Positions 1,488-13,427 of a stretch of DNA of 55,024 nt are shown piece after piece. The stretch spans positions 1-55,024 of IMG/VR virus record IMGVR_UViG_3300031920_000406; one strand, 5' to 3'. Position 1 is the stretch's first letter; the number at the start of each line of letters is the position of its first letter. A program made the translations under genes and the position numbers. The notes under the pieces were generated by a model. That model saw only the letters and a list, made by a program, of their open reading frames with translations. It did not search any database and was not told the DNA's origin. This stretch comes from a virus. Lineage: Duplodnaviria > Caudoviricetes.

Positions 1488-2358
1488 TAATTCTTTCTCC
1501 TATAAATTTGAGTACTTTTCCGCATCCCAGTTTGTTATAGCAATAGTTGAATATTTTTGGGTGTTTTTTTAATAGCAGTGAATATTTTCGAATTACGTCT
1601 TGGAACGGTCCGAACATGCAGTACATGCAGCCGGTTGATGATAGGTTTCCATCCTCATAGATTGATGGTGGTTTGAGTTTTCTTTCTTTGATAAAATTCC
1701 AGCAATCTTCATCTGTCCAGATTGATATTGGGTTGCATATTGTTGTTTTCTTTCCCACATGGATGCACCCTCGTTGTAGATAATTATGTAGTCTTCTTTC
1801 GGAATCATCGGCTTTCAGCCCCAAGATTGGTTTCAATCCTGTTCGTTGTTCGAATATTCGTGCGGGTCCTTTTTTGAGGTGTTGGCAACACGAGTCGGAT
1901 ATTTTAAACGGGGCTTTTACAAGGAACTTCCATTTTTTGGACAGTGAGTATCTTCCTCTTTCTGTGTAATTGTAGAGAGCGGTTGCTGAGTGTGTTTTCC
2001 GAATACGTTCAATATACCCCGCCTGTTCTTTTGATACCACTGGATAGCCGTATTTTGCAATTACCTCTCTTACTGATATTCGGGCGTGTTGGATTTCGCA
2101 GTTTGGCGTATTTCGTATATTTTTCACGATTTCCGGCCATTCTAATCCCGTATGGAAGAATACTGCAGGCGTTTCTGGAAATAGTTCTCGTGCCAGTTCC
2201 AGTACCACCATTGAGTCTTTTCCTCCGGAGTAGGACACATACATTTCTCCGTGCGTAAGGTGGTGGAAATTTTGTAATTTCCCCTTCGCCATTTTCACTT
2301 TCAATCTTAGTGGAAGATTTCTCTTTATTAGAAACTCGGATCGAGTTAGGTGTGCCAT
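1438..2358 (-). CDS. PAPS reductase / DndC-like PP-loop protein (probable start MAHLTR at 2358; ORF open to 2592)
   Basis: SYSGGKDS PP-loop, SDSCC..LKK, PISIW, STGCMYC motifs typical of phage PAPS-reductase-family proteins. Confidence 0.85.
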   Translation of the reverse strand: MAHLTRSEFLIKRNLPLRLKVKMAKGKLQNFHHLTHGEMYVSYSGGKDSMVVLELARELFPETPAVFFHTGLEWPEIVKNIRNTPNCEIQHARISVREVIAKYGYPVVSKEQAGYIERIRKTHSATALYNYTERGRYSLSKKWKFLVKAPFKISDSCCQHLKKGPARIFEQRTGLKPILGLKADDSERRLHNYLQRGCIHVGKKTTICNPISIWTDEDCWNFIKERKLKPPSIYEDGNLSSTGCMYCMFGPFQDVIRKYSLLLKKHPKIFNYCYNKLGCGKVLKFIGERINENWDPTLQSKNQTTI

Positions 2359-2634
2359 ACAGCTCACAATATAGTTCTTGTCTTTTCTCTTCCCAAGATT
2401 TTTTTCCTTTTCCCTTTCTCTTTTTGCTATTAAGTGTGTTATCTTCCTCGTGGTTGAAACTGTTTCGCAGCTTCTGTCTTTTGTATTCCTTTTCTGGCCT
2501 TGCCACTCGTCCGGGGCTTGAGTTCCCGGACTCTCTTTTTTTATATGCTCTACCCTTTTTTGTTTCTTCATTTTTCTCATTTCTATGGACAATACTGTTT
2601 AATTTTCACACCTGAATAGTCCCTGTTTTAAAAC

Positions 2635-2663
2635 TTGACAGCCCCTTAATTTTGTGCTATATT
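2635..2663 (+). promoter_or_regulatory. Sigma70 promoter driving the Arc-like gene and the cassette array
   Basis: TTGACA (2635-2640), 17 bp spacer, TG-n-TATATT (2658-2663). Confidence 0.85.
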
Positions 2664-2704
2664 AGATAGTAACATCAAATTCATTCCAAACCGGAGTCAG
2701 TATA

Positions 2705-2953
2705 ATGTCTAGCTATCCCTTGTATATTTCTGATGATCTCAAAAATGTTATTGCTAAACTATCCCAAAAAAAACATCGGTCCATGAATGCACAGATACTA
2801 CATATTCTCGAAAATTGGGTAAATCAACAGACCCACGATCCGGAAACACACTCTGCGATTACCCCAAGTAACCCAGCTGCATCTGTACAAACTGATGCGG
2901 AGCGGGCTGCGGCTCTAAAAACACAGGGCGACTGGCCGGACAAAACCGCATGA
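2705..2953 (+). CDS. Arc-like ribbon-helix-helix DNA-binding protein
   Basis: YPLYISDDLKNVIAKLSQKKHRSMNAQILHILE matches the Arc family pattern (RSMNxxI); GGAG RBS. Confidence 0.8.
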   Translation: MSSYPLYISDDLKNVIAKLSQKKHRSMNAQILHILENWVNQQTHDPETHSAITPSNPAASVQTDAERAAALKTQGDWPDKTA

Positions 2954-2958
2954 GACCC

Positions 2959-2988
2959 GTTCATCATATATCTCTCGTTGTAAGAAAT
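2959..2988 (+). other. attI-like entry motif 1 (GTTCAtCATAT...GTTGTAAGAAAT)
   Basis: Non-hairpin motif shared with 4430 and 11952; precedes the first cassette. Confidence 0.45.
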
Positions 2989-3132
2989 AGGAGATTGCTT
3001 CCATGGTTGTAGGCTGTAAAATTCCTGAAGGTGTGCAGAAACGAGTAGCTGGCGTCTGTGGTAGCAGGTATAGCCTGGCATTGTCACGAGCACCAAAATC
3101 CATGCACCAGCCTGTTTTGGAGGCAATTTCCT

Positions 3133-3268
3133 ACATCTTCCAACAAAAAAAGGTTTACATTTTGGCAATGGCCATAAAGTGGATATATGGCCACTCCAAT
3201 GTTTATAACGGTAACAGCCCATTTTTGTGTGCCAAAACGTCAACCCTTTATCAAACGTTGTCGGAAAC
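3133..3268 (+). repeat. attC-like site
   Basis: ACATCTTCCAAC ... aaggtttacattttggca / tgccaaaacgtcaaccctt ... GTTGTCGGAAAC. Confidence 0.7.
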
Positions 3269-3294
3269 AAATTTCTTAAAAGTGGAGTTGTAGA

Positions 3295-3534
3295 ATGCCT
3301 GAAAAATTAAACAAATGTCCATTCTGTGGAGGAAGTGCCGGTACTGGGCACACCGGAGGTTTTGAAAACCAGCACTTGATTTATTGTTTTGATTGTGGCG
3401 TTACGATGTCTGGTGATAGTGTCTCTCACGTTGTAGCCCGGTGGAACTATCGGCCACAAATTAAGGAAACCGAATTCAAAACCGTTGGAAACAATTCCGT
3501 TCCCAAAATGATTATAGGAGATTGCTATGACTAA
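3295..3534 (+). CDS. Lar-family (restriction alleviation-like) zinc-binding protein
   Basis: LNKCPFCGG ... IYCFDCG ... VARWNYR. Confidence 0.7.
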   Translation: MPEKLNKCPFCGGSAGTGHTGGFENQHLIYCFDCGVTMSGDSVSHVVARWNYRPQIKETEFKTVGNNSVPKMIIGDCYD

Positions 3535-3850
3535 AATTGATTCTTGGATGCTTTTACACGAAAAGCTTACTGATATGATAGTGCGGGCTAGTGAAATGGC
3601 CCGCGCTGCTTGCCGTAACGGTGAGTTTTATTGGTTAGCACGATATGATTGTTTGCGAGAAGTAGTAATTGAACTTGAACCGATCGCACTATCAGACTCT
3701 AAGGTAGCTGACAACTCCATATCCCCCAAGAAAGAAAGGGATGTAATTTGCCCTCACTGGAACTTTACTACGCAATGTAATTTTTGTGTCGATTGGGTGT
3801 GTACTAAACAACCTTGTGTTTTGACCTGCAACCTACCACCTCTTTCGTGA
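3527..3850 (+). CDS. Hypothetical cassette protein; Cys-rich tail encoded within the attC-like hairpin
   Basis: AGGAG RBS; stop codon lies in the hairpin right arm. Confidence 0.65.
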   Translation: MTKIDSWMLLHEKLTDMIVRASEMARAACRNGEFYWLARYDCLREVVIELEPIALSDSKVADNSISPKKERDVICPHWNFTTQCNFCVDWVCTKQPCVLTCNLPPLS

Positions 3851-3864
3851 ACGTTGTAGGAAAT
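3719..3864 (+). repeat. attC-like site (degenerate left core)
   Basis: ATATCCCCCAAG gaaaggg ... cctctttc gtgaacGTTGTAGGAAAT. Confidence 0.55.
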
Positions 3865-3900
3865 GATTTATAAGTAAATTTAGATTATCACGAAGGTCAT

Positions 3901-4425
3901 ATGACAACAATTATGAGTAGAGCTGCGGCCAAGTCATGGTGGGGTGTTGATCTACCGCTCGGAGTGATTTCTCTTTCCCGGACTCACCCTCACACCGAAT
4001 GGATCGAATTCACAAAATCTGACCTTGTAAAACGTAAAATTAGAAAGCAGGAATCCAATCTTCTCTACCTGCGAAGAGGAAAAGCACAAATACCCTGTTT
4101 TGTTTGGATATTCTACAACAAATCAATTTTATTCGGCGGATGGCACATCTACGTCAAAACCGCATACAAGGATTACCCATTGAATTTTCGTCACGATGAA
4201 CATGAACTAATTGTACAAGCTATGGCGTTGTTCCCCTGTGGGTTTTTACCACTTATTTCTTTATCCGTAGCGTGGATGTCTTATTTTGTAAAGCAATATC
4301 CACATATTGGTTTTAAGCGCGGTTTGCGAGGTTGGAAACAAGGGCTTGCTCAATGCTGGTGTTTGATTGATGAAAATAAGAACCTCACTGATATTTATAG
4401 TATGCCGAAAACGAGATTTAGATGA
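3901..4425 (+). CDS. Hypothetical protein
   Basis: 174-aa ORF directly after a GTTG core. Confidence 0.65.
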   Translation: MTTIMSRAAAKSWWGVDLPLGVISLSRTHPHTEWIEFTKSDLVKRKIRKQESNLLYLRRGKAQIPCFVWIFYNKSILFGGWHIYVKTAYKDYPLNFRHDEHELIVQAMALFPCGFLPLISLSVAWMSYFVKQYPHIGFKRGLRGWKQGLAQCWCLIDENKNLTDIYSMPKTRFR

Positions 4426-4429
4426 AATA

Positions 4430-4457
4430 GTTCACCATATGCGTAGTTGTTAAACAT
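4430..4457 (+). other. attI-like entry motif 2 (GTTCACCATATgcgtaGTTGTTAAACAT)
   Basis: 17-bp AAATAGTTCACCATATG identical at 4425-4441 and 11947-11963. Confidence 0.5.
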
Positions 4458-4508
4458 ATTTTTGCCTTTTGAGTATTGTAGTTCGGGCACTAAGGGAAGG
4501 AAACCGTT

Positions 4509-4706
4509 ATGAAATATAAGTATAAGCATTGTAAGGATTGTTATTATCGTTCTAATCAACTATTTAAGAGAAAATTGGTTTGTAAAGATTGCACAAGCAA
4601 TGATACGTTTTCAAAGGATTCTAATTATTCATATAAAAATTATGAATATGTAGGCACTTATGACGAGGCCGTGAAACTTGCTGCCAAATTTCCTCATCCT
4701 CGTTAA
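4509..4706 (+). CDS. Small Cys-motif cassette protein
   Basis: Two CKDC motifs; RBS; flanked by inverted repeats. Confidence 0.7.
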   Translation: MKYKYKHCKDCYYRSNQLFKRKLVCKDCTSNDTFSKDSNYSYKNYEYVGTYDEAVKLAAKFPHPR

Positions 4707-4741
4707 TCCGTGCCCGAAAGAATAATATTGATGGCAAAAAT

Positions 4742-4812
4742 ACGTCTAACAACACGCAAAGGCAAAAATTGATGGAGCCAACTTCTGCCATTTGCGGAAC
4801 GTTGTCGGAAAT
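4742..4812 (+). repeat. attC-like site
   Basis: ACGTCTAACAAC cgcaaaggcaaaaattg / caacttctgccatttgcg gaacGTTGTCGGAAAT; near-identical copy at 12601. Confidence 0.85.
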
Positions 4813-4846
4813 ATCGTCTGAACCATATTATAAAAGGAGTTTCTAA

Positions 4847-5071
4847 ATGTTTGACGTAATAATTCAATATACCGAACAGGTTTCTGAAGATGCATGGTCG
4901 GTGCGGTATCGTACTCTTAAATTTGACATTCCTGGCCTAAAGGAAGAATTGGAGCGTCATAAAATCAGTTCGCACGTTGTTGATGTCCAGGAGGTCGAAA
5001 CTTCTTTAAAAGCGGAATCAGCCGATACATCCGACAACACGCCAAAGGTTTCAATCGATAAAGCTGACTAA
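4847..5071 (+). CDS. Hypothetical cassette protein
   Basis: AAGGAG RBS; ends inside an attC-like site. Confidence 0.7.
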   Translation: MFDVIIQYTEQVSEDAWSVRYRTLKFDIPGLKEELERHKISSHVVDVQEVETSLKAESADTSDNTPKVSIDKAD

Positions 5072-5098
5072 AACCATTTGCGGAACGTTGTACGAAAT
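5027..5098 (+). repeat. attC-like site
   Basis: ACATCCGACAAC ... aaccatttgcggaacGTTGTACGAAAT; related to the 6606 site. Confidence 0.85.
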
Positions 5099-5145
5099 AC
5101 ACCGCGCTGAGCATTGTGGTTCGGCGCACTAACATTGGAGGTGTC

Positions 5146-5340
5146 ATGCAAAACTTGATTTTACTACAAGATGTGGATTACTTCGGGCGTACAATTCGCC
5201 GTGGTGCCACGTTTAAAAAAGTTGATTCGGACTGGTATGTGCTATGGGAGAATAACAAAGGCATTGTGCACCACTGTCCTACTGTTAAGTTGCATTTCAC
5301 ATCAGTCTCGGAAGGTTACTTTGTCAAACAGTATGCTTAA
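5146..5340 (+). CDS. Hypothetical cassette protein
   Basis: GGAGG RBS then ATG at 5146. Confidence 0.7.
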   Translation: MQNLILLQDVDYFGRTIRRGATFKKVDSDWYVLWENNKGIVHHCPTVKLHFTSVSEGYFVKQYA

Positions 5341-5380
5341 AAAGCCGTGCGCCGAAAGTAAAAAAGCGGATGCGCGGTTT

Positions 5381-5467
5381 AAATCGTGCAACACCCGTAT
5401 GTTTCCATTTGGCGAAGTAGATATGCGGTTGTACCAAACAGCAACATACTTTCCCGTTGTAAGAAAT
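5381..5467 (+). repeat. attC-like site
   Basis: AAATCGTGCAAC gtatgtt / aacatac ... GTTGTAAGAAAT. Confidence 0.7.
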
Positions 5468-5530
5468 AATTTAGCCTTTTTTGATTGTAAAATAAAAACA
5501 CTAAACATTAACTTTTAAAGTGAGGTAAAC

Positions 5531-5779
5531 ATGGCTTGCAAAGATGATAATGCTAAAACTGATATTAAATTTCGTAGCTATAATGTGGGTGATACAATAA
5601 GAATGCCCAATTATCCAACTGCTACTGGCTTCCGTGTCTGGAAAATTGTGGCTGAAAAGTTGGGCGGCGAAGGCCAAGAGAGCACATATGAACTAAACCC
5701 TTTGGATGTTTTGGAAAATCATAAAATTGAAATTCCGACAATAATACTTGAATCGCATTCAGTAATTGAGAGAATCTAA
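5531..5779 (+). CDS. Hypothetical cassette protein (small beta-barrel-like)
   Basis: GAGGT RBS; flanking inverted repeats. Confidence 0.7.
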   Translation: MACKDDNAKTDIKFRSYNVGDTIRMPNYPTATGFRVWKIVAEKLGGEGQESTYELNPLDVLENHKIEIPTIILESHSVIERI

Positions 5780-5819
5780 TTAACCCGTGTTTTTAAAGAA
5801 CATTAGGGAAGGCTAAATT

Positions 5820-5894
5820 ACATCTTACAACAGGTGCCGGAGTGCCATTTTTTAGGAACAAAACAGCATCCTTGCACCGGACGTTGGAGGAAAT
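5820..5894 (+). repeat. attC-like site
   Basis: ACATCTTACAAC ggtgc / gcacc ggacGTTGGAGGAAAT. Confidence 0.75.
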
Positions 5895-5930
5895 TCCATT
5901 TTGAAAACGATTATTATAAGGAGGCATTGA

Positions 5931-6245
5931 ATGTTAATAGAAGAATATCTGCAAATGCGTATACAGTCAGCAGAATCAATTCTTGCTGGTGAAAAGTTGG
6001 CAGGTAATATTGCGAAGGAAATGGCAGAGAAGGCAGCAATTGCAGAATTGCGGGGGGTCGAGGCTTTTCTAAACAATGCCTCCAAAAACTCTAATGTAGC
6101 TCAAAACTCCACATCCTCCAACATATCAAGGGATGTCATTTTTGCTGCTGCTAATAAGTGGGCTAAAGGTAATCCAAACTGTTTCGGTATAAATGGTTTC
6201 CAGGCTGGTGTCGAGTGGGCGCAAAAACAGACACCCGTTGATTAA
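5931..6245 (+). CDS. Hypothetical cassette protein reading through an attC-like site
   Basis: AGGAGG RBS; C-terminal FQAGVEWA phage-type motif. Confidence 0.7.
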   Translation: MLIEEYLQMRIQSAESILAGEKLAGNIAKEMAEKAAIAELRGVEAFLNNASKNSNVAQNSTSSNISRDVIFAAANKWAKGNPNCFGINGFQAGVEWAQKQTPVD

Positions 6246-6259
6246 CCGTTGTCGGAAAT
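6111..6259 (+). repeat. attC-like site
   Basis: ACATCCTCCAAC atcaagggatgtcatttttgc / gcaaaaacagacacccgttgat taaccGTTGTCGGAAAT. Confidence 0.8.
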
Positions 6260-6313
6260 AGAATTTTAAAAAGCATATTATAATATTTTTCACTTAACAT
6301 AAGGAGATTAGTT

Positions 6314-6574
6314 ATGGCAAAAGTACATACGTTTGAATTCGAGCTTGGAGTAGAGTGTTACTCGAAAATTTCTGGTTTTAAAGGAATAATTACATCTCGT
6401 TCCCAACACCTCAACGGTTGTGACAGGTACTGGATAGAACCAAGAGTTGATAAGGAAGGAAAGAAGCCCGATGGTCTATGGTTTGATGACGGCGAACTTA
6501 TTGTTAAAGAGGCTACTAAAAGATTTAAACGGACAAACAATGATAATGGTGGATTTCCGTCACGTATCAAGTAG
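6314..6574 (+). CDS. Conserved-looking phage hypothetical protein (SH3-like)
   Basis: ISGFKGIITSRSQHLNGCDRYWIEP...WFD pattern; AAGGAG RBS. Confidence 0.75.
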   Translation: MAKVHTFEFELGVECYSKISGFKGIITSRSQHLNGCDRYWIEPRVDKEGKKPDGLWFDDGELIVKEATKRFKRTNNDNGGFPSRIK

Positions 6575-6605
6575 CCGTGAAAAATAAATTAAGGAAGAAA
6601 ATTTT

Positions 6606-6676
6606 ACATCCAGCAACACAGAAAGGTTTCAACCGGTAAGGCTGGCAAAAACCGTTTCTGGAACGTTGGAGCGCCA
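6606..6676 (+). repeat. attC-like site
   Basis: ACATCCAGCAAC cagaaaggttt / aaaccgtttctg gaacGTTGGAGCG. Confidence 0.8.
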
Positions 6677-6719
6677 TTTTAAAAATTTTTGAATTGTAGT
6701 TTAACTCACTGGAGGGATT

Positions 6720-6923
6720 GTGGCATCTTGTGAAAAGTGTTGGGAAGATGCTGGAGGTAATCCAGATAAATATAGCAGATTGATAAAATTGCGCGCTGAC
6801 AATCCATGTTCCCCAGAAGACCAAGCTGGCGAAGGTGCTGAAAAATGTCCTACATGCGGCAAATTTGCAATACATATTTATTGCCATGAATGTATGGCGT
6901 GTCATTATAAACTCGTTCGTTAA
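6720..6923 (+). CDS. Small zinc-finger protein
   Basis: CEKC, CPTC, CHEC motifs; GGAGG RBS. Confidence 0.7.
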   Translation: MASCEKCWEDAGGNPDKYSRLIKLRADNPCSPEDQAGEGAEKCPTCGKFAIHIYCHECMACHYKLVR

Positions 6924-6975
6924 AGCAACTGGTTGTCAGTTGCTTTACATCTTACAACACAAAAAGGAGTTTACG

Positions 6976-7146
6976 ATGTCAACTTATGATCCGGTAGAAA
7001 TGTTTGATTGTCATTTGAGACGTATTGCTCGATCATTAGAGAGTTTAATTTCCTTATTAGCGAAATCAGCAGAGAAATCCGACAACAACCAACCAGCAAA
7101 ATCATGCAGAACGTGTAAACATACCTTAAGGTGGTCGGTTTTTTAG
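6976..7146 (+). CDS. Hypothetical protein
   Basis: AAGGAG RBS; contains left-core-like AAATCCGACAAC at 7075-7086. Confidence 0.55.
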   Translation: MSTYDPVEMFDCHLRRIARSLESLISLLAKSAEKSDNNQPAKSCRTCKHTLRWSVF

Positions 7147-7198
7147 GGACTGGCTCAAAAACAAAAACCATTTGTAAATCTTTTAAATTGGAGGGCGC

Positions 7199-7420
7199 TT
7201 GAGAAATTTAACACCGGTTGACTCTTTTGACATCATACAATGTTGTCGGAGAATATGCAATCCTGAAGTTGCTTATAACGAGAACCAATTGACAATGGCT
7301 CACGAGGCAATGACGGTAATGCAAGATGAAGCCGCAAGCATTCGTCAAATTATAGGCCGCGCCGAACAAGTTATTACCGTCGATGAATTGCAAAATGGAG
7401 CAAAAAAAAATTGTGAATAA
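7199..7420 (+). CDS. Hypothetical protein
   Basis: GGAGG RBS, TTG start. Confidence 0.55.
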   Translation: MRNLTPVDSFDIIQCCRRICNPEVAYNENQLTMAHEAMTVMQDEAASIRQIIGRAEQVITVDELQNGAKKNCE

Positions 7421-7635
7421 CGTCGTACAATCATCGGTACCGTGTCCGTCGTGCGGTTCCTGGTATCGAAGCAGAAACACCTGTAAGTGCGGCACTCAGG
7501 TTGCAGAACCGCAACCAAAAGAGCGCGTGATCAGGCAACCAGGGACTGGCAAATTAGGTAAAATGTGGAATAAAAATCTACACCGATACTTGACAGAAAA
7601 AGAAATCAAGTCAGGTATGAAAGGCGGGTAAAAAT

Positions 7636-7902
7636 ATGGGAATGAAGAAAATTTATAGCTGTAATATCTGCCGGGATGAAATTGAGAATCCAACACTTAT
7701 GTATGGTGTGCACTTTTCTAATTTAACTCAGTTCACTTTAGGCGGTTATGCTTGCACCGAGGGTGTGCATATTTGTTTTAGGTGTGCAATTCAACTTAAA
7801 AAACACCTTAATTGCGAAGCGCTAAGCAAAGAGCTTGCGCAGCAGCAAAATATTGAATCGAGCGAACAGCAGGCAACAAATAAGAGGTTTCCTAATGGCT
7901 GA
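7636..7902 (+). CDS. Small zinc-finger protein
   Basis: YSCNIC ... HICFRC. Confidence 0.65.
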   Translation: MGMKKIYSCNICRDEIENPTLMYGVHFSNLTQFTLGGYACTEGVHICFRCAIQLKKHLNCEALSKELAQQQNIESSEQQATNKRFPNG

Positions 7903-8101
7903 ATATCATGAGGATGGTTGTGTGATGGACGTTGAAATTTTAGCTGATCATAGCGATAGTGAATACGAACGGTACACCTTGAAGGTTATAAACATTAAAC
8001 AAAAAAGCCTAATTTTCAAGTCGCCTAAGATTGGCACTGCTTTTGATTGCTCTAAAAAAATAGGTGTGAGTTGTTATTGTTTGTGGAGGCTAATAAAATG
8101 A
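7895..8101 (+). CDS. Hypothetical protein
   Basis: GAGG RBS; overlaps neighbouring ORFs in operon fashion. Confidence 0.55.
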   Translation: MAEYHEDGCVMDVEILADHSDSEYERYTLKVINIKQKSLIFKSPKIGTAFDCSKKIGVSCYCLWRLIK

Positions 8102-8274
8102 GGAATTTATTTACAATCGCAATTATATGTATAGCAATCGTTGTTCCCTTATTATTAGGTTTGATTGTTGCTAGAAGTACAGGTGATAGAGACTTTTTTT
8201 TATTGGGGATTGCGGTCTCGTATGTGTTTACATTTGGGACAATAATATTACTAACCAATTCGACAAAGAAATAA
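8098..8274 (+). CDS. Small two-TM membrane protein
   Basis: Two hydrophobic segments; GGAGG RBS. Confidence 0.55.
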   Translation: MRNLFTIAIICIAIVVPLLLGLIVARSTGDRDFFLLGIAVSYVFTFGTIILLTNSTKK

Positions 8275-8349
8275 ATTAAGTTGAAAGGATATGATATTGG
8301 TTGCGATGCGTAGGCGGCATCCGAACGACCAGCAGAAAGGGAAAAAGAA

Positions 8350-8577
8350 ATGAAAGAAATGGCAGAAATGGCAGAAATATTATATAAATTAAAATTGGGG
8401 GAGGTCTTTTGCCCTAATAGCAATTCATCATGGCAAAGAGTTCCTGGTGGCTGGACGTATGGAAACCTGCATGGGACATGCTTTGTTCCATTCAACAACG
8501 AATTTCAAAACGCTCCAGAAATCACGGTCAACAAGAAAAGGACTGCCTGCTCTATTTGCAAAAAGGATATGAAATGA
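8350..8577 (+). CDS. Hypothetical protein
   Basis: RVPGGW..Y...FVPF phage-type motif. Confidence 0.6.
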   Translation: MKEMAEMAEILYKLKLGEVFCPNSNSSWQRVPGGWTYGNLHGTCFVPFNNEFQNAPEITVNKKRTACSICKKDMK

Positions 8578-8897
8578 AAATTTTACATTTACCGATTGAA
8601 AAATGCTGGTTTGATATGATTCTCTTCGGAGAAAAAAAAGAAGACTATCGAAAAATTAAGCCTCATTGGAACAGTAGGTTGCAGAGTGGCACAAAATTCA
8701 AAAAATTCGATATTGTACTTTTTGAAAACGGATATTCTAAAAATGTGCCGTGGATGAAAGTTGATCTCCTGAACATTCGTTGTGGCGTCGGTAGAGTAGA
8801 ATGGGGAGCGCCTGAACATGAAACGGTATACATTTTACGCCTTGGTAACATATTAGAGGTGTCGTATCCAGGAGGTTTTGAATGGGCGAAAAAATAA
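8574..8897 (+). CDS. ASCH/PUA-like domain protein
   Basis: MKILHLPIEKCWFDMILFGEKKEDYR...FENGY...EWGA. Confidence 0.8.
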   Translation: MKILHLPIEKCWFDMILFGEKKEDYRKIKPHWNSRLQSGTKFKKFDIVLFENGYSKNVPWMKVDLLNIRCGVGRVEWGAPEHETVYILRLGNILEVSYPGGFEWAKK

Positions 8898-9175
8898 AAC
8901 TATGTAAATGCGGTTGTGGCCGCGAGGTGCCGAGTCACAGACAATATGTTGCTGAATGTCAGACACGGGTAAATCGTGAAAGAATGGTTGTCTACAATAG
9001 GGAGCACCGCAACTGTGCCCTCGACTTACGACATGCGCGCACTGTAAAATTAAGAACAATGAAAAAATGTAACAACATTCTCCACGCGCTTGACGTTACG
9101 GCAGCAGAAATATCCGCGCAGGTGGAAAAAATACGATTAAAACACGGGGTGCCGTATAACTTTATTCAAATTTAA
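8882..9175 (+). CDS. Hypothetical protein with CKCGCG motif
   Basis: ORF with GGAGG RBS. Confidence 0.55.
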   Translation: MGEKIKLCKCGCGREVPSHRQYVAECQTRVNRERMVVYNREHRNCALDLRHARTVKLRTMKKCNNILHALDVTAAEISAQVEKIRLKHGVPYNFIQI

Positions 9176-9195
9176 TAGGGCAAAGAAATGAAAAT

Positions 9196-9504
9196 ATGAA
9201 TGAAAAAAAATTCAAAAAAGGTATAGAGACGGTACTCACCGCTATTGCGGATGGGTTTGATAGAAAATTGTATTCTCAAACAAAAGCACAACTCGAAGAA
9301 CATTGGTTTTTTGAATATGATAGCAATTTATCACCACAGAAAAATATATATCAGTTTTGGGATTTGTTAACATTGTATGAAAACTCTTGCCGGCGATGGG
9401 AGGAACACCACAATGGTACAATTTGTGTTGTAGAAAGAGTTAGAGATAAATATTTAATGCCAAAAATCAATCTTTTTTATGTTGAGCTTTTGAAAAATGA
9501 CTAG
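9196..9504 (+). CDS. Hypothetical protein
   Basis: 102-aa ORF in co-oriented array. Confidence 0.6.
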   Translation: MNEKKFKKGIETVLTAIADGFDRKLYSQTKAQLEEHWFFEYDSNLSPQKNIYQFWDLLTLYENSCRRWEEHHNGTICVVERVRDKYLMPKINLFYVELLKND

Positions 9505-9666
9505 AAAAGAGAAAATGAAATACCAGGTCAGAGACGAACAATGCTATACAAAAAAATGCTTCACACCGTTTTCTGGAAACGGCTGGAAAATATGTCGATT
9601 ATATGAAATGGGGCAATGTCCTGATGCTGTTCCAGATGCCCCGCTTAACAGAACGGAGAAAAAGAA

Positions 9667-10431
9667 ATGAACTGGTTACCGGAAATGTGGACGTACTCTG
9701 AATACGTTTCGCACAGATTTATGAGTCGCTATCAAAAAGGAAAATATTACGAGCCTTTGATTGATAGAAATGCATTTTTATACGTTCCATTTGTAAACGA
9801 CAAGGATTTTGCGTTTTTGGCAGAAACGTCATACAAAATTATTATTGCATTTTCAGGTCCCAAGAATCTCCCTGCAATGATAAACAATTTTGATGCATAC
9901 CCTCTCGGTGAAGGAATGATACTTGACGGATTCTACCGTTCATGGAAATATTACAAGGATGCCTTTGACCGATTCTTCCGAGACAATTTTGATGGCCATG
10001 GGAAGGATTTTTCCGGTATCAAGAAAGAGTTGCTGATTACCGGCCATAGTCGCGGTGGCGCCCTGGCTAGTTTGTGTGCCAGGCACTTCTCAAAAAACCG
10101 GCAGAAACCGAACACTTGTTACACGTTTGGTGCACCGCCTCAGGGAACTCAAGAATATGTTGATCAATATAACAAACTTACCGTCCTTAATATTCGAGGT
10201 GTCAACGGCTCTGACATTGTGCCAACAATGTTGTTGCCGCGGAGCCTAGGGTTTCTTCATCAAAATCATTTGCACCATTTTCCACAGCCGCGTTGGCACC
10301 GGTGGTTTCATAAAATCCGTGACCACTATTATTCAAATTACACAAAAGCGATACTAAAATATTGCCGTAAGGTAGGAGACCGTGACGGCGTTGCACAAAT
10401 GAAGCGTGTTCTGAAAAGAGCACGACCGTAA
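9667..10431 (+). CDS. Class 3 lipase (alpha/beta hydrolase)
   Basis: ITGHSRGGALA nucleophile elbow; YTFGAP; DIVP; late DH catalytic His. Confidence 0.85.
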   Translation: MNWLPEMWTYSEYVSHRFMSRYQKGKYYEPLIDRNAFLYVPFVNDKDFAFLAETSYKIIIAFSGPKNLPAMINNFDAYPLGEGMILDGFYRSWKYYKDAFDRFFRDNFDGHGKDFSGIKKELLITGHSRGGALASLCARHFSKNRQKPNTCYTFGAPPQGTQEYVDQYNKLTVLNIRGVNGSDIVPTMLLPRSLGFLHQNHLHHFPQPRWHRWFHKIRDHYYSNYTKAILKYCRKVGDRDGVAQMKRVLKRARP

Positions 10432-10450
10432 TCAATAAAGGAGGAGCAAG

Positions 10451-10675
10451 ATGAAAGAGGGAGATTTGATAGTAGTTTGGCGGGACAACGGAGAAGCGTT
10501 GCTGACAAAAGCTCGTTCAGATCAATTTTTAGATGTAAACAAAAACGATGTGATTTTTGCGATAGGTGTGAGAGGCTGTTATCATTGCACTCATGTTAGA
10601 CCGGTTACCATCCATAAGTGCGTTTTCTCAGAAGATCTTAAGGGTGAAATTTCGTTGTCAAAACGAATATTATAG
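10451..10675 (+). CDS. Hypothetical protein
   Basis: GGAGG RBS. Confidence 0.6.
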   Translation: MKEGDLIVVWRDNGEALLTKARSDQFLDVNKNDVIFAIGVRGCYHCTHVRPVTIHKCVFSEDLKGEISLSKRIL

Positions 10676-10678
10676 GGA

Positions 10679-11065
10679 ATGCAAATGAGTTGTAAATGTC
10701 AAAGTTGCGGTGATCTTTATAAGGTCGATTTAATAATTCCTGATAAGTTATGGGAAATTATTAAACCAAAGGGTAAAGTTAAAGGAGCGGGGTTGCTTTG
10801 CGGTAAATGTATTATTAAATTTCTTGAATTAATCAATGAATACCGGGCACTCCATTTAGTGGGAGCTGACAACTCCCCATCTCCCAACAAGTCAAGTTTG
10901 AGATTGCCGGACGTCAAGCAATGTATTGAACATGCCATGTCTAAATTAGGCGATGATTATTTCAACGTAACGCCGTCAATGTTAATCGGGTGTGTACGTA
11001 GATTTATAGCAAGTGAACTGGAGGGGAAAAATGGGATACAGAAACATAAAACCGGTATTAACTAA
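10679..11065 (+). CDS. Zinc-finger hypothetical protein
   Basis: CQSCG...LW...GLLCGKC; relic left core at 10877-10888. Confidence 0.6.
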   Translation: MQMSCKCQSCGDLYKVDLIIPDKLWEIIKPKGKVKGAGLLCGKCIIKFLELINEYRALHLVGADNSPSPNKSSLRLPDVKQCIEHAMSKLGDDYFNVTPSMLIGCVRRFIASELEGKNGIQKHKTGIN

Positions 11066-11321
11066 TATTTGGGAATTATCTGGTTGCTGTGGCCTGTTCA
11101 CCGGTGACACGTCCCTTAACAATGGGTACGGGTGTAAATCACGCTCAAAAGAAAAAGACGAGGTCGGATGCTGTTATATGTGGGACTGTCCGCTCGCTTA
11201 CTCTGCTAGCCTGGAGGACTTGAAAAAACACGACACTTATCTATACAAAGAATATCTGGATAGTGGAGACGATCCAGAACAGAGTGATTGGATGATACAA
11301 TATAGAGAGGTACAGAAATGA
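11031..11321 (+). CDS. Cys-rich hypothetical protein
   Basis: NNGYGC...GCCYMWDCPLA; GGAGG RBS. Confidence 0.6.
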   Translation: MGYRNIKPVLTNIWELSGCCGLFTGDTSLNNGYGCKSRSKEKDEVGCCYMWDCPLAYSASLEDLKKHDTYLYKEYLDSGDDPEQSDWMIQYREVQK

Positions 11322-11602
11322 TAGAACCTATTCCTGTTCAAATGACTGCAACACCGACCGACTCTGTCTTGATCAACAAACTTAACCAGGTTATTTCTGA
11401 CGTTAACAGATTTTTACCCATTCACAGGAGAAAGGAAAAAATGTCAACAGAAGTCAAAATTCAACGAAAAAAAACCTGGATAGTAAATCATCGGGATAAC
11501 AACCACACTCGTTATGTGTGTTTCGATTGTTGTATTAATTATGTTTCAAAAAATATGACGGTGTGCGTTAAATGTGGGAAGGAAACCACAAAAATTTACT
11601 AG
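11318..11602 (+). CDS. Hypothetical protein with C-terminal zinc ribbon
   Basis: CFDC...CVKCG. Confidence 0.5.
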   Translation: MIEPIPVQMTATPTDSVLINKLNQVISDVNRFLPIHRRKEKMSTEVKIQRKKTWIVNHRDNNHTRYVCFDCCINYVSKNMTVCVKCGKETTKIY

Positions 11603-11739
11603 ACCGAGTTTAGGCCGGGGTTTAAAAATGTATAAAATGATCAATCCAGTTCTATATTTCTTAATGTTCGCGGCGGTCGGTTGCCTGTTCTGGCTGCTCG
11701 TTCACACATTTTCGTTAGAATATAACCAGGAGGTGCCAT

Positions 11740-11952
11740 ATGGATGCATCAGATGCATCAACAATGTTGGAACGTACGAAAGCGCGGTTGATTGAGGCCG
11801 CGGAAAAAGAGTATGGGAAAATTGAACCGTGCAATATAGACCCGTTTACAATTTTCGATGGTGTTCTCTATTTTTGGTTTAATTTGCCAGACAATTCAAC
11901 ACATTTCACACACACCCATCTAATTCACGAGAATACAGAATCGGAAAAATAG
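11740..11952 (+). CDS. Hypothetical protein, paralog of 19376-19576
   Basis: LIEAAEKEYGKI...FWFN...STH; AGGAGG RBS. Confidence 0.65.
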   Translation: MDASDASTMLERTKARLIEAAEKEYGKIEPCNIDPFTIFDGVLYFWFNLPDNSTHFTHTHLIHENTESEK

Positions 11953-11979
11953 TTCACCATATGTCTAGTTGGTGGAAAA
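11952..11979 (+). other. attI-like entry motif 3 (GTTCACCATATgtctaGTTGGTGGAAAA)
   Basis: Shared with 4430 and 2959; starts the second clear run of cassettes. Confidence 0.5.
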
Positions 11980-12009
11980 ATTAATTATTCATAACAGGAG
12001 CGCAAAAAA

Positions 12010-12330
12010 ATGAAAGCAGTGATCGAATTGATTAATGGTGTAGAGGGGGGGTGCATTTGTATCTGTGCAAGTGGTGATGATGGCGGAAGGCGTGTTGCAG
12101 GCCCAAAGCCGTGGGGTGGAGGGGTTGTTGTTAAAAAGTGGATTACAACAGTTGAAGACATTGAAGATGCGCTCCAAAGCATTCGGAACATTAATTCATC
12201 CACCAACAACGAAAGGACTTCAATTTGTCCTGAATGCCATTCGGATGATTCAGATGTTGAATGTGGACTTTCCTTTTGCAATGCTTGTGGTAATAGTTGG
12301 AGGCACGGACAAACTAAATCCGTTTCGTGA
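12010..12330 (+). CDS. Cassette protein; C-terminal zinc ribbon encoded in attC-like loop
   Basis: RVAGPKPWGGG motif; CPECH...CNACG lies between the hairpin arms. Confidence 0.7.
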   Translation: MKAVIELINGVEGGCICICASGDDGGRRVAGPKPWGGGVVVKKWITTVEDIEDALQSIRNINSSTNNERTSICPECHSDDSDVECGLSFCNACGNSWRHGQTKSVS

Positions 12331-12344
12331 ACGTTGTAAGAAAT
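12196..12344 (+). repeat. attC-like site
   Basis: TCATCCACCAAC acgaaagga..tttgtcc / ggacaaa..tccgtttcgt gaacGTTGTAAGAAAT. Confidence 0.8.
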
Positions 12345-12395
12345 AAATCAAATTTTTATTATTATAGTTTGCTCATTAACAGAAAGGGAAATGAA

Positions 12396-12566
12396 ATGAA
12401 AAATGTGCCAAAGTATATGATTTATGATGGTAGGTATCGGTTTGACGAAGATCGAGCGATTGTAATGGATATGGCCGATACTCTTTCAGAAGCAAACGCG
12501 GCCGCCAAAGATCAAGGGGATGCCGTAGTAGTTGATTCTAAAACAGGTGCAATTGTATACGGGTAG
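12396..12566 (+). CDS. Small hypothetical cassette protein
   Basis: MKNVPKYMIYDGRY...; flanked by AAATCAAATT / AATTTGATTT. Confidence 0.6.
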   Translation: MKNVPKYMIYDGRYRFDEDRAIVMDMADTLSEANAAAKDQGDAVVVDSKTGAIVYG

Positions 12567-12600
12567 CCCATTCGCAAAAGAACTGGTTGTAATTTGATTT

Positions 12601-12670
12601 ACATCTTACAACACGCAAAGGTAAAAATTGATGGAGCCAACTTCTACCATTTGCCAACGTTGTGACAAAA
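12601..12670 (+). repeat. attC-like site (sister of 4742)
   Basis: Near-identical to 4742-4812 with compensatory ggC..Gcc to ggT..Acc change. Confidence 0.85.
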
Positions 12671-12692
12671 TAATTTTTTCTTTGGAGTTATA

Positions 12693-12938
12693 ATGTTTTC
12701 TAAATTTGAATTAGCAGTAATCGAAGTTGATGTTTCTCATGTTTTAAAGTTGGTTTCTCTTGATGACCAGCAAAGGAAAACACGGGAGAATATTGTAAAA
12801 AAAATTACTTCGCACAACAAACAAAGTGGAGAAATAGAATGTACTAACTGTGGAATTCTTTTGCCACCAATGGAGCCAGGAGAAGGTGACCCGTCTAAAA
12901 GTGGCTATTTGTGCCGCACGTGTTTTGGTTTGGATTAA
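12693..12938 (+). CDS. Cassette protein; zinc ribbon in attC-like loop
   Basis: GGAG RBS; CTNCG...LCRTC. Confidence 0.65.
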   Translation: MFSKFELAVIEVDVSHVLKLVSLDDQQRKTRENIVKKITSHNKQSGEIECTNCGILLPPMEPGEGDPSKSGYLCRTCFGLD

Positions 12939-12980
12939 TAGACATTTTACTTCTCACGTTTATCAACTGTTGTACGAAAT
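12807..12980 (+). repeat. attC-like site
   Basis: ACTTCGCACAAC aaagtggaga..aatgt / acatttt..tctcacgttt ... GTTGTACGAAAT. Confidence 0.65.
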
Positions 12981-13130
12981 ACAGGCTTACTATAAGAGCC
13001 GTTTTAAAAGCAGAATGAAATGGAAAAAAATTAACAAAACACTGGCTGAAATAGCAAAAAAATACTGCTCATTGGTATACGAAATGGCAAAATCGCACAA
13101 TGTGGAAATCTGAACCCTGGAAGGGATGTT

Positions 13131-13427
13131 ATGAGTTTACGAAAAAAACAATCCAAATTTGCACAGATGTTGATATTATTGTTTGCCTATATTGTTCAGG
13201 GCGGCTATGAGATCACACTTGGAGACGCTGCAAGAATTGATAGGCGAGGACACTCGAAAAACAGTAAACACTATGTGAGGCTGGCAATTGACCTCAATCT
13301 GTTTAAAGACGGAAAATATCTACGAGATACGGCAGATCACGAAAAAATAGGGATCTTCTGGGAAGCTATCGGGGGAACATGGGGCGGTCGATTTACAAAT
13401 CCTGACGGCAACCATTATCAATTGTAA
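13131..13427 (+). CDS. Peptidase M15 family endolysin
   Basis: SKH..RLAIDLN Zn motif; WGGRF..PDGNHY. Confidence 0.85.
   Translation: MSLRKKQSKFAQMLILLFAYIVQGGYEITLGDAARIDRRGHSKNSKHYVRLAIDLNLFKDGKYLRDTADHEKIGIFWEAIGGTWGGRFTNPDGNHYQL

What the first reader, a model, noticed from the sequence alone, without database searches (positions are those of the whole stretch)
2959..13101. Phage-borne integron-like gene cassette array with non-canonical attC-like sites and no integrase
Seen: at least 11 imperfect hairpins between small plus-strand ORFs, bounded by ACATCNNNCAAC and GTTGNNNGAAAT (3133, 3719, 4742, 5027, 5381, 5820, 6111, 6606, 12196, 12601, 12807). The variable bases after each GTTG usually match the left core of the NEXT site, not the same site. 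Examples: GTTGTCGGA 4801 / TCCGACAAC 5030; GTTGTAAGA 5456 / TCTTACAAC 5823; GTTGGAGGA 5883 / TCCTCCAAC 6114; GTTGGTGGA 11968 / TCCACCAAC 12199; GTTGTAAGA 12333 / TCTTACAAC 12604. Known: this is the signature of integron cassettes, whose R' and R'' are complementary in the excised circle. Inference: the phage accessory region is a shufflable cassette library, probably using a host IntI-type or other tyrosine recombinase in trans. The cores deviate from GTTRRRY.
Basis: partly seen in the sequence, partly recalled or inferred. Interest (0 to 1): 0.95.

Follow-up and report, generated by a model that had tools for sequence, protein, structure and literature searches.

The report
Phage-borne integron-like gene cassette array
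A phage from marine sediment carries a row of small genes separated by folded DNA sites of the kind integrons use to swap gene cassettes, but has no swapping enzyme of its own, which suggests that phages share plug-in genes that a host enzyme moves.

Summary
All are on the + strand. The three variable bases after GTTG are exactly complementary to the next site's left core in 6 of 11 cases and to the same site's core in 0 of 11. Only 2 of 100,000 permutations reach 6. This is the integron cassette-boundary signature.

In 8 of 11 array-bearing cellular genomes, the same site family lies beside, and divergent from, a tyrosine recombinase. That enzyme is Xer-like and lacks the domain specific to integron integrases. 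Neither tyrosine nor serine recombinases were found in the window record or in four complete phages carrying such arrays. An otherwise unrelated 50-kb phage shares one cassette at 80% nucleotide identity, and the homology starts at a right core.

Best reading: a CALIN-type array with a new attC family, served in trans by a host enzyme. Phage CALINs are already published (Qi et al. 2023). The site family, the array size and the recombinase type look new. No excision or recombination event was observed.

The parts
1438..2592 (-). Left flank: PAPS-reductase-like phage gene, divergent from the array. It is not a recombinase.
   Evidence: Pfam PF01507 7e-18 and phrog_424 1.1e-39
2705..2953 (+). Small ribbon-helix-helix or Arc-like ORF just before the first core
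   Evidence: Weak Pfam hits below the curated cut-offs: FitA-like RHH 0.0015, Arc 0.0033
2976..2988 (+). Orphan right core CGTTGTAAGAAAT with no hairpin. This is the start of the array.
   Evidence: R1 gives a weak hit at 2961-2988, E 2.9.
3133..3268 (+). Site A, 136 nt, long loop
   Evidence: R1 E 0.0056
3295..3534 (+). Cassette gene: Lar-like restriction alleviation protein (zinc ribbon)
   Evidence: PF14354 6.2e-8, above its cut-off; phrog_599 1.4e-8
3719..3864 (+). Site B, 146 nt. Its left core ends in CAAG, and its loop encodes the cysteine-rich tail of ORF 3527-3850.
   Evidence: R1 E 0.96; translation
4429..4457 (+). Right-core box 1 without a hairpin (AGTTCACCATATGCGTAGTTG + TTA). It splits the 3853-4801 interval into two cassettes.
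   Evidence: The 21-nt box occurs twice, with 0.02 expected by chance. GTTGTTA is complementary to TAACAAC of site C.
4742..4812 (+). Site C, 71 nt, intergenic. Its body is 93% identical to that of site J.
   Evidence: R1 E 7.2e-4; repeat family D6
5027..5098 (+). Site D, 72 nt. The stop codon of ORF 4847-5071 lies in its loop.
   Evidence: R1 E 1.3e-4
5381..5467 (+). Site E, 87 nt, intergenic
   Evidence: R1 E 0.11
5820..5894 (+). Site F, 75 nt, intergenic
   Evidence: R1 E 3.2e-4
5877..6092 (+). Cassette body shared with the otherwise unrelated phage G005 (80% identity over 216 nt). Homology starts at the right core of site F and ends about 15 nt before the left core of site G.
   Evidence: blastn; alignment A3; tblastn
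6111..6259 (+). Site G, 149 nt. Its loop encodes the tail of ORF 5931-6245.
   Evidence: R1 E 0.036
6606..6677 (+). Site H, 72 nt, with a degenerate right flank (GTTGGAGCGCCA)
   Evidence: R1 E 0.66
6678..11950 (+). Block of about 19 tightly packed small + strand genes (including a class 3 lipase at 9667-10431) with no complete site. It holds three orphan left cores (6947-6958, 7075-7086, 10877-10888), read as decayed sites.
   Evidence: repeat families D7, D9, D11
11951..11979 (+). Right-core box 2 without a hairpin (AGTTCACCATATGTCTAGTTG + GTG). It starts the second run of cassettes.
   Evidence: GTTGGTG is complementary to CACCAAC of site I.
12196..12344 (+). Site I, 149 nt. Its loop encodes the zinc-ribbon tail of ORF 12010-12330.
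   Evidence: R1 E 0.013
12601..12670 (+). Site J, 70 nt, intergenic
   Evidence: R1 E 0.0027
12807..12980 (+). Site K, 174 nt, the last site. Its loop encodes the zinc-ribbon tail of ORF 12693-12938. The stretch 12810-12956 also occurs in another contig of a different sample.
   Evidence: R1 E 0.053
13131..13427 (+). Right flank: M15 peptidase (likely endolysin)
   Evidence: PF13539 3.5e-9

Best explanation
Region 2976-12980 is a cluster of integron-type gene cassettes without an integrase (a CALIN) inside a phage genome. Each unit is a small gene followed by a folded recombination site with this layout: 5'-A(C/T)ATC-NNN-CAAC, one unpaired base, a variable paired arm, a loop of 20 to over 100 nt, the partner arm (often with one bulged base), four unpaired bases (RRAC), then GTTG-NNN-GAAAT-3'. 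Strand exchange at the invariant GTT of the right core explains why the bases after GTT travel with the downstream gene and pair with the left core at that gene's 3' end. The sites belong to a family whose cellular home is in Patescibacteria. There, arrays begin next to a divergent Xer-like tyrosine recombinase that lacks the insert specific to integron integrases. The phage has no such enzyme, so cassettes would be gained, lost and exchanged when a host recombinase acts in trans on single-stranded or extruded phage DNA. Shown: site family, structure, boundary signature, recombinase adjacency in cellular genomes, absence of recombinases in the phages, and one cassette shared between unrelated phages. 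Inferred: the cut position, the enzyme, the host, and present-day activity.
For: (1) Model R1, built from CPR sites only, finds the 11 sites as its top 11 hits in the window. It finds 35 hits at E<=0.1 in 17 of 38 viral loci. It finds 0 hits at E<=1 in 228 kb of control phage DNA. (2) Boundary signature: 6 of 11 exact for adjacent sites against 0 of 11 for the same site in the window, with 2 of 100,000 permutations reaching 6. Over window, phage and CPR loci it is 18 of 32 against 1 of 32, and permutations reach at most 8 in 10,000. The fourth base (GTT[G/A]) co-varies too, which places the crossover within or directly after the invariant GTT. (3) Paired arms covary. In the CPR alignment 89.7% of cells pair, against 72.1% in shuffles and at most 41.5% when partners are slid; 9 of 11 arm pairs show changes on both sides. 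In the viral alignment 70.9% pair against 59.4% (0 of 500 shuffles). (4) A recombinase 46-63% identical to the L161 enzyme lies divergent from the first core or site, at 0.13-2.8 kb, in 8 of 11 array-bearing genomes. (5) R1 hits 30 of 151 Patescibacteria genomes against 1 of 151 Pseudomonadota. (6) No PF00589 in the window record or in 5 other array phages, 4 of them at least 90% complete. No PF00239 in 5 records. No protein family is shared by more than 2 of 6 array phages. (7) The window and G005 share only array pieces. The 216-nt, 80% match begins at a right core. (8) The array starts with orphan right cores and ends with a complete site, as a gene-plus-downstream-site unit predicts.
Against: No excision product, circle or alternative cassette order was seen. 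The only data were assembled contigs, and the source sample showed one arrangement. Fold energies are ordinary: 0 of 10 sites has z below -2. Five of 11 junctions are not exactly complementary, and two match at only 1 of 3 bases. The window sites score modestly with R1 (E 1e-4 to about 1). The phage-type short sites are rare in cells: model R2 hits 3 of 151 Patescibacteria, 0 of 150 other Chloroflexota and 0 of 151 Pseudomonadota, so no abundant cellular source of this subtype was found. The 3' end of the shared cassette lies near a left core, which exchange at right cores alone does not predict. Six sites overlap coding sequence, so protein-level constraint shapes part of them. The associated recombinase lacks the domain that the literature calls necessary for integron recombination (Ghaly et al. 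2022, passage read). The record is only 62% complete, so an integrase in the missing part of this phage cannot be excluded. The host is unknown: the capsid protein was not found in 401 Patescibacteria genomes.
Confidence: 0.65

Rival explanations
1. The hairpins are conserved regulatory or structural modules of early phage genes. Shuffling happens by homologous recombination between these repeats, using the phage's own RecT and YqaJ exonuclease. This resembles the promoter-stem-loop modules reported for T4-type phages (recalled, not read here).
For: RecT (phrog_148, 3.2e-64) and a YqaJ exonuclease (PF09588, 2.1e-29) are encoded at 16963-18899. No phage carries a site-specific recombinase. One end of the cassette shared with G005 lies near a left core, and repeat families extend 20-30 nt upstream of the cores. 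Terminator-like hits are somewhat enriched in the region (15 against 8.1 +/- 2.9).
Against: Homologous exchange between repeats does not create complementarity between the end of one site and the start of the next. The same family sits next to tyrosine recombinases in cells. No T-run follows the main stems, and only 4 of the 15 terminator-like hits (2 per strand) fall inside sites. Promoter-like hits are not enriched (36 against 29.6 +/- 5.2), and the distance from the core to -10-like hexamers is not fixed.
Confidence: 0.15
2. The array is a fossil. A piece of a host cassette array was captured once (or a few times) and is now inert, decaying phage DNA.
For: Degenerate sites are present (B with CAAG, H with a lost right flank), along with three orphan left cores and a 5.3-kb block without complete sites. 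No variant arrangement was seen in the source sample.
Against: The cassettes are phage-like: a Lar anti-restriction gene and phrog_16275. They are shorter than those in the CPR arrays. The short site subtype occurs in many unrelated viral contigs but rarely in cells. Array pieces are shared at 80-93% identity between and within phages that share nothing else. Both points indicate repeated exchange inside the phage gene pool.
Confidence: 0.13
3. The motif works at the RNA level. The 5' GUUG-NNN-GAAAU and 3' ACAUC-NNN-CAAC of each gene pair to enclose the mRNA for processing, stability or translation control, and compensatory changes keep them complementary.
For: The complementary cores bracket each gene on the coding strand. 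Covariation by itself cannot tell RNA from single-stranded DNA.
Against: No Rfam family matched the window at the gathering thresholds. Recombinase adjacency and cassette-wise exchange between unrelated genomes have no RNA explanation. Some right cores stand alone at array starts.
Confidence: 0.05

Closest known systems
CALINs (clusters of attC sites lacking an integron integrase) in phage genomes: Qi et al. 2023, Front Microbiol, PMC9892861 (abstract and section 3.4 read)
   Same: These are co-oriented small ORFs separated by attC-type hairpins in virulent phages, with no integrase in the phage. That paper showed host-type IntI1 recombining 5 of 6 phage attC sites.
   Different: That study found 17 CALINs in 10,705 phage genomes, each with at least 2 sites (TJE1 has 3). 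This window has 11 complete sites plus 3 orphan right cores. Model R1 finds nothing in phage TJE1, and the core motif is absent there, so this is another site family. The other CALINs are listed only in supplements that I could not open.
Sedentary chromosomal integrons, such as the Vibrio anguillarum array carried in phage record MK672802
   Same: The recombinase gene is divergent from co-oriented cassettes. Sites within an array are alike. The right core is complementary to the next left core, which I saw by eye.
   Different: The canonical integrase carries the IntI-specific domain. Canonical sites share only 3 conserved bases (Loot et al. 2017, PMC5371416, passage read), whereas this family keeps about 9 fixed bases in each 12-nt core. 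In the Vibrio sites the spacers are 5 and 5 nt and the extra bases lie on the left arm of the coding strand. Here the spacers are 1 and 4 nt and the bulge lies on the right arm. R1 does not hit the Vibrio array.
Xer recombinases acting on folded single-stranded hairpins (CTX-phi type integration) and Xer-dependent pdif gene modules on Acinetobacter plasmids (the first recalled; the second from the abstract of PMC7399989 in the listing)
   Same: An insert-less Xer-type tyrosine recombinase serves mobile DNA in trans, and small gene modules are bounded by its sites.
   Different: Those systems use dif-like sites of about 28 bp. They do not form arrays of long imperfect hairpins with cassette-wise complementarity.
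Promoter-stem-loop (PeSL) modules in hyperplastic regions of T4-type phages (recalled, not read)
   Same: Repeated stem-loops lie between small accessory phage genes, and modular shuffling was proposed.
   Different: PeSLs are defined by an early promoter joined to a stem-loop and recombine by homology. Here there is no fixed promoter register, there is a site-specific boundary signature, and there are cellular counterparts next to a recombinase.

Membership tests
Complete integron | An integron integrase gene (a tyrosine recombinase with the IntI-specific additional domain) next to the array | tested here: not met
   PF00589 gives 0 hits in the record, with the control positive in 14 of 14 genomes. 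The recombinase beside the cellular arrays aligns colinearly with XerA (5hxy). Against VchIntIA (2a3v) it has only 12 residues opposite IntI residues 187-240. It scores below the TIGR02249 cut-off (216.7 against 265).
attC recombination site | An imperfect hairpin made of two nested inverted repeats (R''/R' and L''/L'), with conserved AAC and GTT triplets | tested here: met
   GTT is present in 11 of 11 sites and AAC in 10 of 11 (site B has AAG). Arm pairing covaries.
attC recombination site | The variable part of R' belongs to the next cassette and pairs with that cassette's R'' | tested here: met
   6 of 11 exact against 0 of 11 for the same site, with 2 of 100,000 permutations reaching 6; 18 of 32 against 1 of 32 over all loci
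attC recombination site | An unpaired central spacer, extrahelical bases and a variable terminal structure, arranged as in canonical sites | tested here: inconclusive
   All three elements are present. However, the spacer is 1 nt against 4 nt, and the bulge lies on the 3' arm of the coding strand, opposite to the Vibrio anguillarum sites I inspected. Which strand is used cannot be decided here.
attC recombination site | Length of 57-141 bp (Loot et al. 2017, passage read) | tested here: inconclusive
   7 of 11 sites fall in the range (70-136 nt). Sites B, G, I and K are 146-174 nt.
attC recombination site | Recognised by the IntegronFinder or HattCI models and recombined by an integrase in vivo | not testable with these tools
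   Neither program nor its model is available here. Rfam has no match at the gathering thresholds.
CALIN | Two or more attC sites with no integrase nearby | tested here: met
   11 sites and no integrase in 55 kb. This depends on accepting the sites as attC-type.
Intrinsic terminators or PeSL regulatory modules | A stem followed by a T-run, or a promoter in fixed register with the stem-loop | tested here: not met
   The main stems are followed by GTTG-NNN-GAAAT, not by a T-run. Promoter-like hits number 36 against 29.6 +/- 5.2, and only 2 start at a core.

The most novel reading that the evidence does not exclude
This is a separate branch of integron-like systems. It is driven by a Xer-type recombinase without the IntI insert, recognises sequence-conserved 12-nt cores on folded DNA, and is native to Patescibacteria (20% of sampled genomes). 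Its cassettes have colonised the accessory regions of many unrelated phages, from 39 kb to 254 kb, so that phages and hosts draw on one common pool of plug-in genes. It may be close to the ancestral state from which classical integron integrases arose. The site type would also mark phages of CPR bacteria.
Probability: 0.4. Interest if true: 0.9.

Novelty: new variant of a known kind. Interest (0 to 1): 0.8.

Why it matters
Integrons are the textbook device for capturing and reordering genes in bacteria. In phages only small arrays of attC sites without an integrase had been reported. This window shows a large array built from a site family that is common in uncultivated phages. One of its cassettes also occurs in an unrelated phage. 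That offers a concrete mechanism for the known mosaicism of phage accessory regions, including anti-defence genes such as the Lar-like cassette.

The cellular counterpart is arrays next to a Xer-like enzyme that lacks the domain held to define integron integrases. This makes two open questions testable. How did recombination of folded single-stranded sites evolve from Xer? How do the small genomes of CPR bacteria acquire genes? If the site type follows host lineage, it could also serve as a host marker for CPR phages, which are hard to assign.

Tried and rejected
No near relatives of the array were found in the GenBank phage collection (megablast). Capsid homologs there are at most 32% identical.

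PAPS-reductase neighbours in IMG/VR are at most 37% identical and carry no sites. Gene order in close relatives therefore could not be compared.

Sequencing runs: the stretch is held by two runs of one marine-sediment sample, which may be the source, and only as contigs showing one arrangement. A contig from another sample joins 4737-4786 to 12810-12956 with 1867 other letters between them. Contigs cannot show rare excision products, so this says nothing about activity.

The capsid protein was not found in 401 Patescibacteria genomes. This is not informative about the host.

TIGR02249 at E<=1e-40 in 301 Patescibacteria genomes was too strict: 3 hits, and it missed G009 itself.

tblastn of the CPR recombinase against phages found only ordinary phage integrases at 35% identity or less.

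The idea that the left core is an in-frame junction for swapping protein tails: in the window, 7 of 7 credible in-ORF cores are read as x-S-x-N/K. Over 38 viral sites the open frames are 11, 7 and 7 with 15 closed, so there is no clear bias. I dropped it as a general rule and keep it as unexplained for this window.

The second IMG/VR pattern scan gave 15 new loci, of which only 2 (L183, L184) are confirmed by R1. None is similar to the window.

All-against-all blastn among viral loci found no further shared cassettes with informative ends.

No tRNA genes were found.

Literature: six searches and passages of PMC9024848, PMC9668308, PMC8138268, PMC11386340 and PMC12259885. I found no description of this core motif, of integron-like arrays in CPR bacteria, or of an insert-less recombinase beside attC arrays. 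This library is incomplete and supplements were closed. In particular, Supplementary Table S1 of Qi et al., which lists 14 further phage CALINs, was not seen.

Full report
WHAT THE WINDOW IS. The window is a whole IMG/VR virus record of 55,024 bp, linear, with CheckV completeness of 62%. It carries phage genes: major head protein, RecT, YqaJ exonuclease, tail spike, a ligase fusion and an M15 peptidase. Two runs of one marine-sediment sample hold it; that sample may be its source. The finding lies between a PAPS-reductase-like gene (1438-2592, minus strand) and the peptidase gene (13131-13427). All its genes are on the + strand.

- The nine exact matches to CGTTGNNNGAAA all lie on the + strand between 2976 and 12343. 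With one mismatch allowed there are 34 matches, against 17.2 +/- 4.0 in shuffles.
- The strongest check is independent of the window. I built a covariance model (R1) from 19 sites taken only from Patescibacteria genomes. The twelfth hit has E 2.1.
- R1 finds nothing at E<=1 in 228 kb of other phage DNA.

ANATOMY OF A SITE. Each site reads 5'-A(C/T)ATC-NNN-CAAC, one unpaired base (A), an arm of about 8-11 nt, a loop, the partner arm (often with one bulged base), four unpaired bases (GAAC, AAAC or GGAC), then GTTG-NNN-GAAAT-3'.
- The loop is 20-35 nt in sites C, D, E, F, H and J, and 90-130 nt in A, B, G, I and K.
- Loops keep short shared words (AAATTG, AACTTC) in both phage and CPR sites.
- The arms differ in sequence from site to site but stay complementary. 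In the CPR alignment 89.7% of cells pair, against 72.1% after shuffling and at most 41.5% when partners are slid. Nine of 11 arm pairs change on both sides.
- In the alignment of 25 viral sites 70.9% pair, against 59.4% (0 of 500 shuffles). One slid register (-1) reaches the same covariation score, because spacer and bulge positions differ between sites.
- Thermodynamically the hairpins are ordinary. Ten sites folded as DNA give z from -1.68 to +0.95. Low folding propensity is reported for many chromosomal attC sites (Loot et al. 2017, passage read), but I count it as evidence against.

THE CASSETTE SIGNATURE.
- The triplet after GTTG is exactly complementary to the triplet of the next left core in 6 of 11 junctions (26 of 33 bases). 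For the left core of the same site it is 0 of 11 (11 of 33 bases). Only 2 of 100,000 permutations reach 6.
- An automatic count over the window, phage loci and CPR loci used four bases and gave 18 of 32 against 1 of 32. In 10,000 permutations the mean was 2.4 and the largest value 8.
- The fourth base (G or A after GTT) co-varies with the next core, so the exchange point lies within or directly after the invariant GTT. That is where canonical integrons cut (G|TT; Qi et al. 2023, section read).
- I saw the same relation by eye in a canonical Vibrio anguillarum array.

WHERE THE ARRAY STARTS AND STOPS.
- Three right cores have no hairpin: 2976, and two copies of a 21-nt box at 4429 and 11951 (0.02 expected by chance).
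- Three left cores have no partner: 6947, 7075 and 10877.
- The array thus starts with a bare right core and ends with a complete site. A unit of gene plus downstream site predicts exactly this.
- The 5.3 kb from 6678 to 11950 has no complete site. I read it as cassettes whose sites have decayed.

THE SITE FAMILY IS WIDESPREAD.
- A strict pattern scan of IMG/VR returned 21 loci. A second scan added 15 new ones.
- R1 confirms sites in 17 of the 38 loci searched, with 35 hits at E<=0.1 and up to six sites in one locus.
- The carriers are very different phages, with GC from 0.39 to 0.56. They include complete genomes of 50, 63, 98 and 254 kb.
- The same scan of cellular genomes gave 120 rows (its limit), about the number expected by chance. 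The rows with real hairpins were mostly Patescibacteria: Parcubacteria, Uhrbacteria, Moraniibacteriota, Falkowbacteria.
- R1 hits 30 of 151 evenly sampled Patescibacteria genomes, with arrays of up to 12 sites. It hits 1 of 151 Pseudomonadota.
- R1 does not hit phage TJE1, which has published attC sites, or the Vibrio array. It therefore marks one family, not attC sites in general.

THE ENZYME.
- In locus L161 (Moraniibacteriota) a 271-aa tyrosine recombinase (PF00589, 3.7e-44) starts 214 nt from the first site and is divergent from the cassettes. This is the integron layout.
- Homologs at 46-63% identity lie 0.13-2.8 kb from the first core or site in G006, G007, G008, G311, G026, G149 and G068. 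That makes 8 of 11 array-bearing genomes examined. G046 and G125 have no homolog at 1e-30. In G312 the array contig is too short to tell.
- The enzyme scores just under the cut-offs of the XerA and integron-integrase models. It aligns in one piece with XerA.
- Against the Vibrio integron integrase it has 12 residues where IntI has 54 (residues 187-240). That region holds the additional domain said to define integron integrases and to be necessary for their reaction (Ghaly et al. 2022; Smyshlyaev et al. 2021).
- The phages carry no such gene. PF00589 is absent from the window and from 5 other array phages, 4 of them at least 90% complete. PF00239 is absent from 5 records. No protein family is shared by more than 2 of 6 array phages.

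EVIDENCE OF MOVEMENT.
- The window and the complete 50-kb phage G005 share nothing by tblastx at 1e-8 except array pieces. These are a 216-nt stretch at 80% identity (window 5877-6092) and hairpin bodies at 84-88%.
- In the pairwise alignment, similarity begins at the right core of site F. It runs through the 5' leader and the first 56 codons, and stops about 15 nt before the left core of site G.
- Within the window, the bodies of sites C and J are 93% identical although they follow unrelated genes.
- The 3' break near a left core is not what exchange at right cores alone predicts. Homologous exchange between the conserved cores, for which the phage has RecT and an exonuclease, may add to the mosaic.

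WHAT THE CASSETTES ENCODE. I scanned ten of the cassette ORFs against Pfam and PHROGs. One is a Lar-like restriction alleviation protein (PF14354, above its cut-off). One belongs to phrog_16275, of unknown function. Eight have no family. Several have cysteine-rich tails encoded inside the long loops.

HOW THIS FAMILY DIFFERS FROM CANONICAL attC SITES.
- Each 12-nt core has about nine conserved bases, not three.
- The spacers are 1 and 4 nt, against 5 and 5 in the Vibrio sites I inspected.
- The bulge and the long spacer sit on the 3' arm of the coding strand, whereas in the Vibrio sites the extra bases sit on the 5' arm.
- An enzyme without the IntI insert would be expected to read sequence more than shape. 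That is inference.
- I recall, but did not read, that the extrahelical bases of canonical sites lie on the R''/L'' arm of the bottom strand. One search agrees with this. Which strand is used in this family stays open.

VERDICT. This is a real array of integron-type cassettes in a phage. Phage CALINs are in print (Qi et al. 2023), so the kind is known. The array size, the site family, its spread through unrelated phages, and its link to an insert-less Xer-like recombinase in Patescibacteria look new within the six searches I ran. Activity, enzyme and host are inferred, not shown.

Noticed in passing
L161:8200-11926 (G009:C15), L168, L166, L167, L169; G026:C1:260354-289415; G149:C20:920-22275: Patescibacteria chromosomes carry integron-like platforms. 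A 270-280-aa Xer-like recombinase without the IntI insert lies divergent from arrays of up to 12 sites. The cassettes include a methyltransferase and Fic/DOC genes, and the arrays lie next to housekeeping genes (rpsB, alaS). I found no description of this in my literature searches.
   Followed up: partly
window 3719, 5027, 6111, 7075, 10877, 12196, 12807: Where a left core lies inside a credible ORF, it is always read in the same frame (x-S-x-N/K), at about residue 60. It is followed by a tail that is often a zinc ribbon encoded in the site's loop. This holds for 7 of 7 cases in the window but shows no clear bias in other viral loci (11/7/7).
   Followed up: partly
window 4429-4449 and 11951-11971: A 21-nt box, AGTTCACCATATGNNTAGTTG, occurs twice. 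Each copy supplies a right core without any hairpin, possibly a second kind of entry site.
   Followed up: partly
G001 (L022, L025): 1311-3311 and 60754-62754: In a complete 62.9-kb phage (GC 0.56), part of the cassette array lies inside the direct terminal repeat, so it is present twice per genome.
   Followed up: no
L156:2873-6070 (minus strand): This phage-like contig is binned with a Dehalococcoidia genome and carries 7 sites. It encodes a large terminase interrupted by an intein with a LAGLIDADG domain.
   Followed up: no
G313:C460:628-1557: In a Chitinivibrionales genome with one R1 site, a recombinase matches the CPR enzyme in two pieces with a 54-codon gap at the position of the IntI insert. 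A classical integron integrase may therefore also meet this site family.
   Followed up: no
window 49532-53221 (+): A 1229-aa protein has an ATP-dependent DNA ligase domain only in its middle (residues 655-834). The rest is unassigned.
   Followed up: no
window 213-2592 (-): A PAPS-reductase-like gene overlaps a 424-aa ORF that has a weak match to the N-terminal domain of radical SAM proteins. Together they may form a DNA or nucleotide modification module.
   Followed up: no
window 4737-4786 and 12810-12956: A 20.9-kb contig at depth 60 from another sediment sample of the same study carries these two array pieces 1.9 kb apart instead of 8 kb. The ends of the matches fall at the left cores of sites C and K.
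   Followed up: partly
window 9667-10431 (+): A class 3 lipase gene (PF01764, 3.3e-17) sits in the site-free middle block of the array.
   Followed up: no
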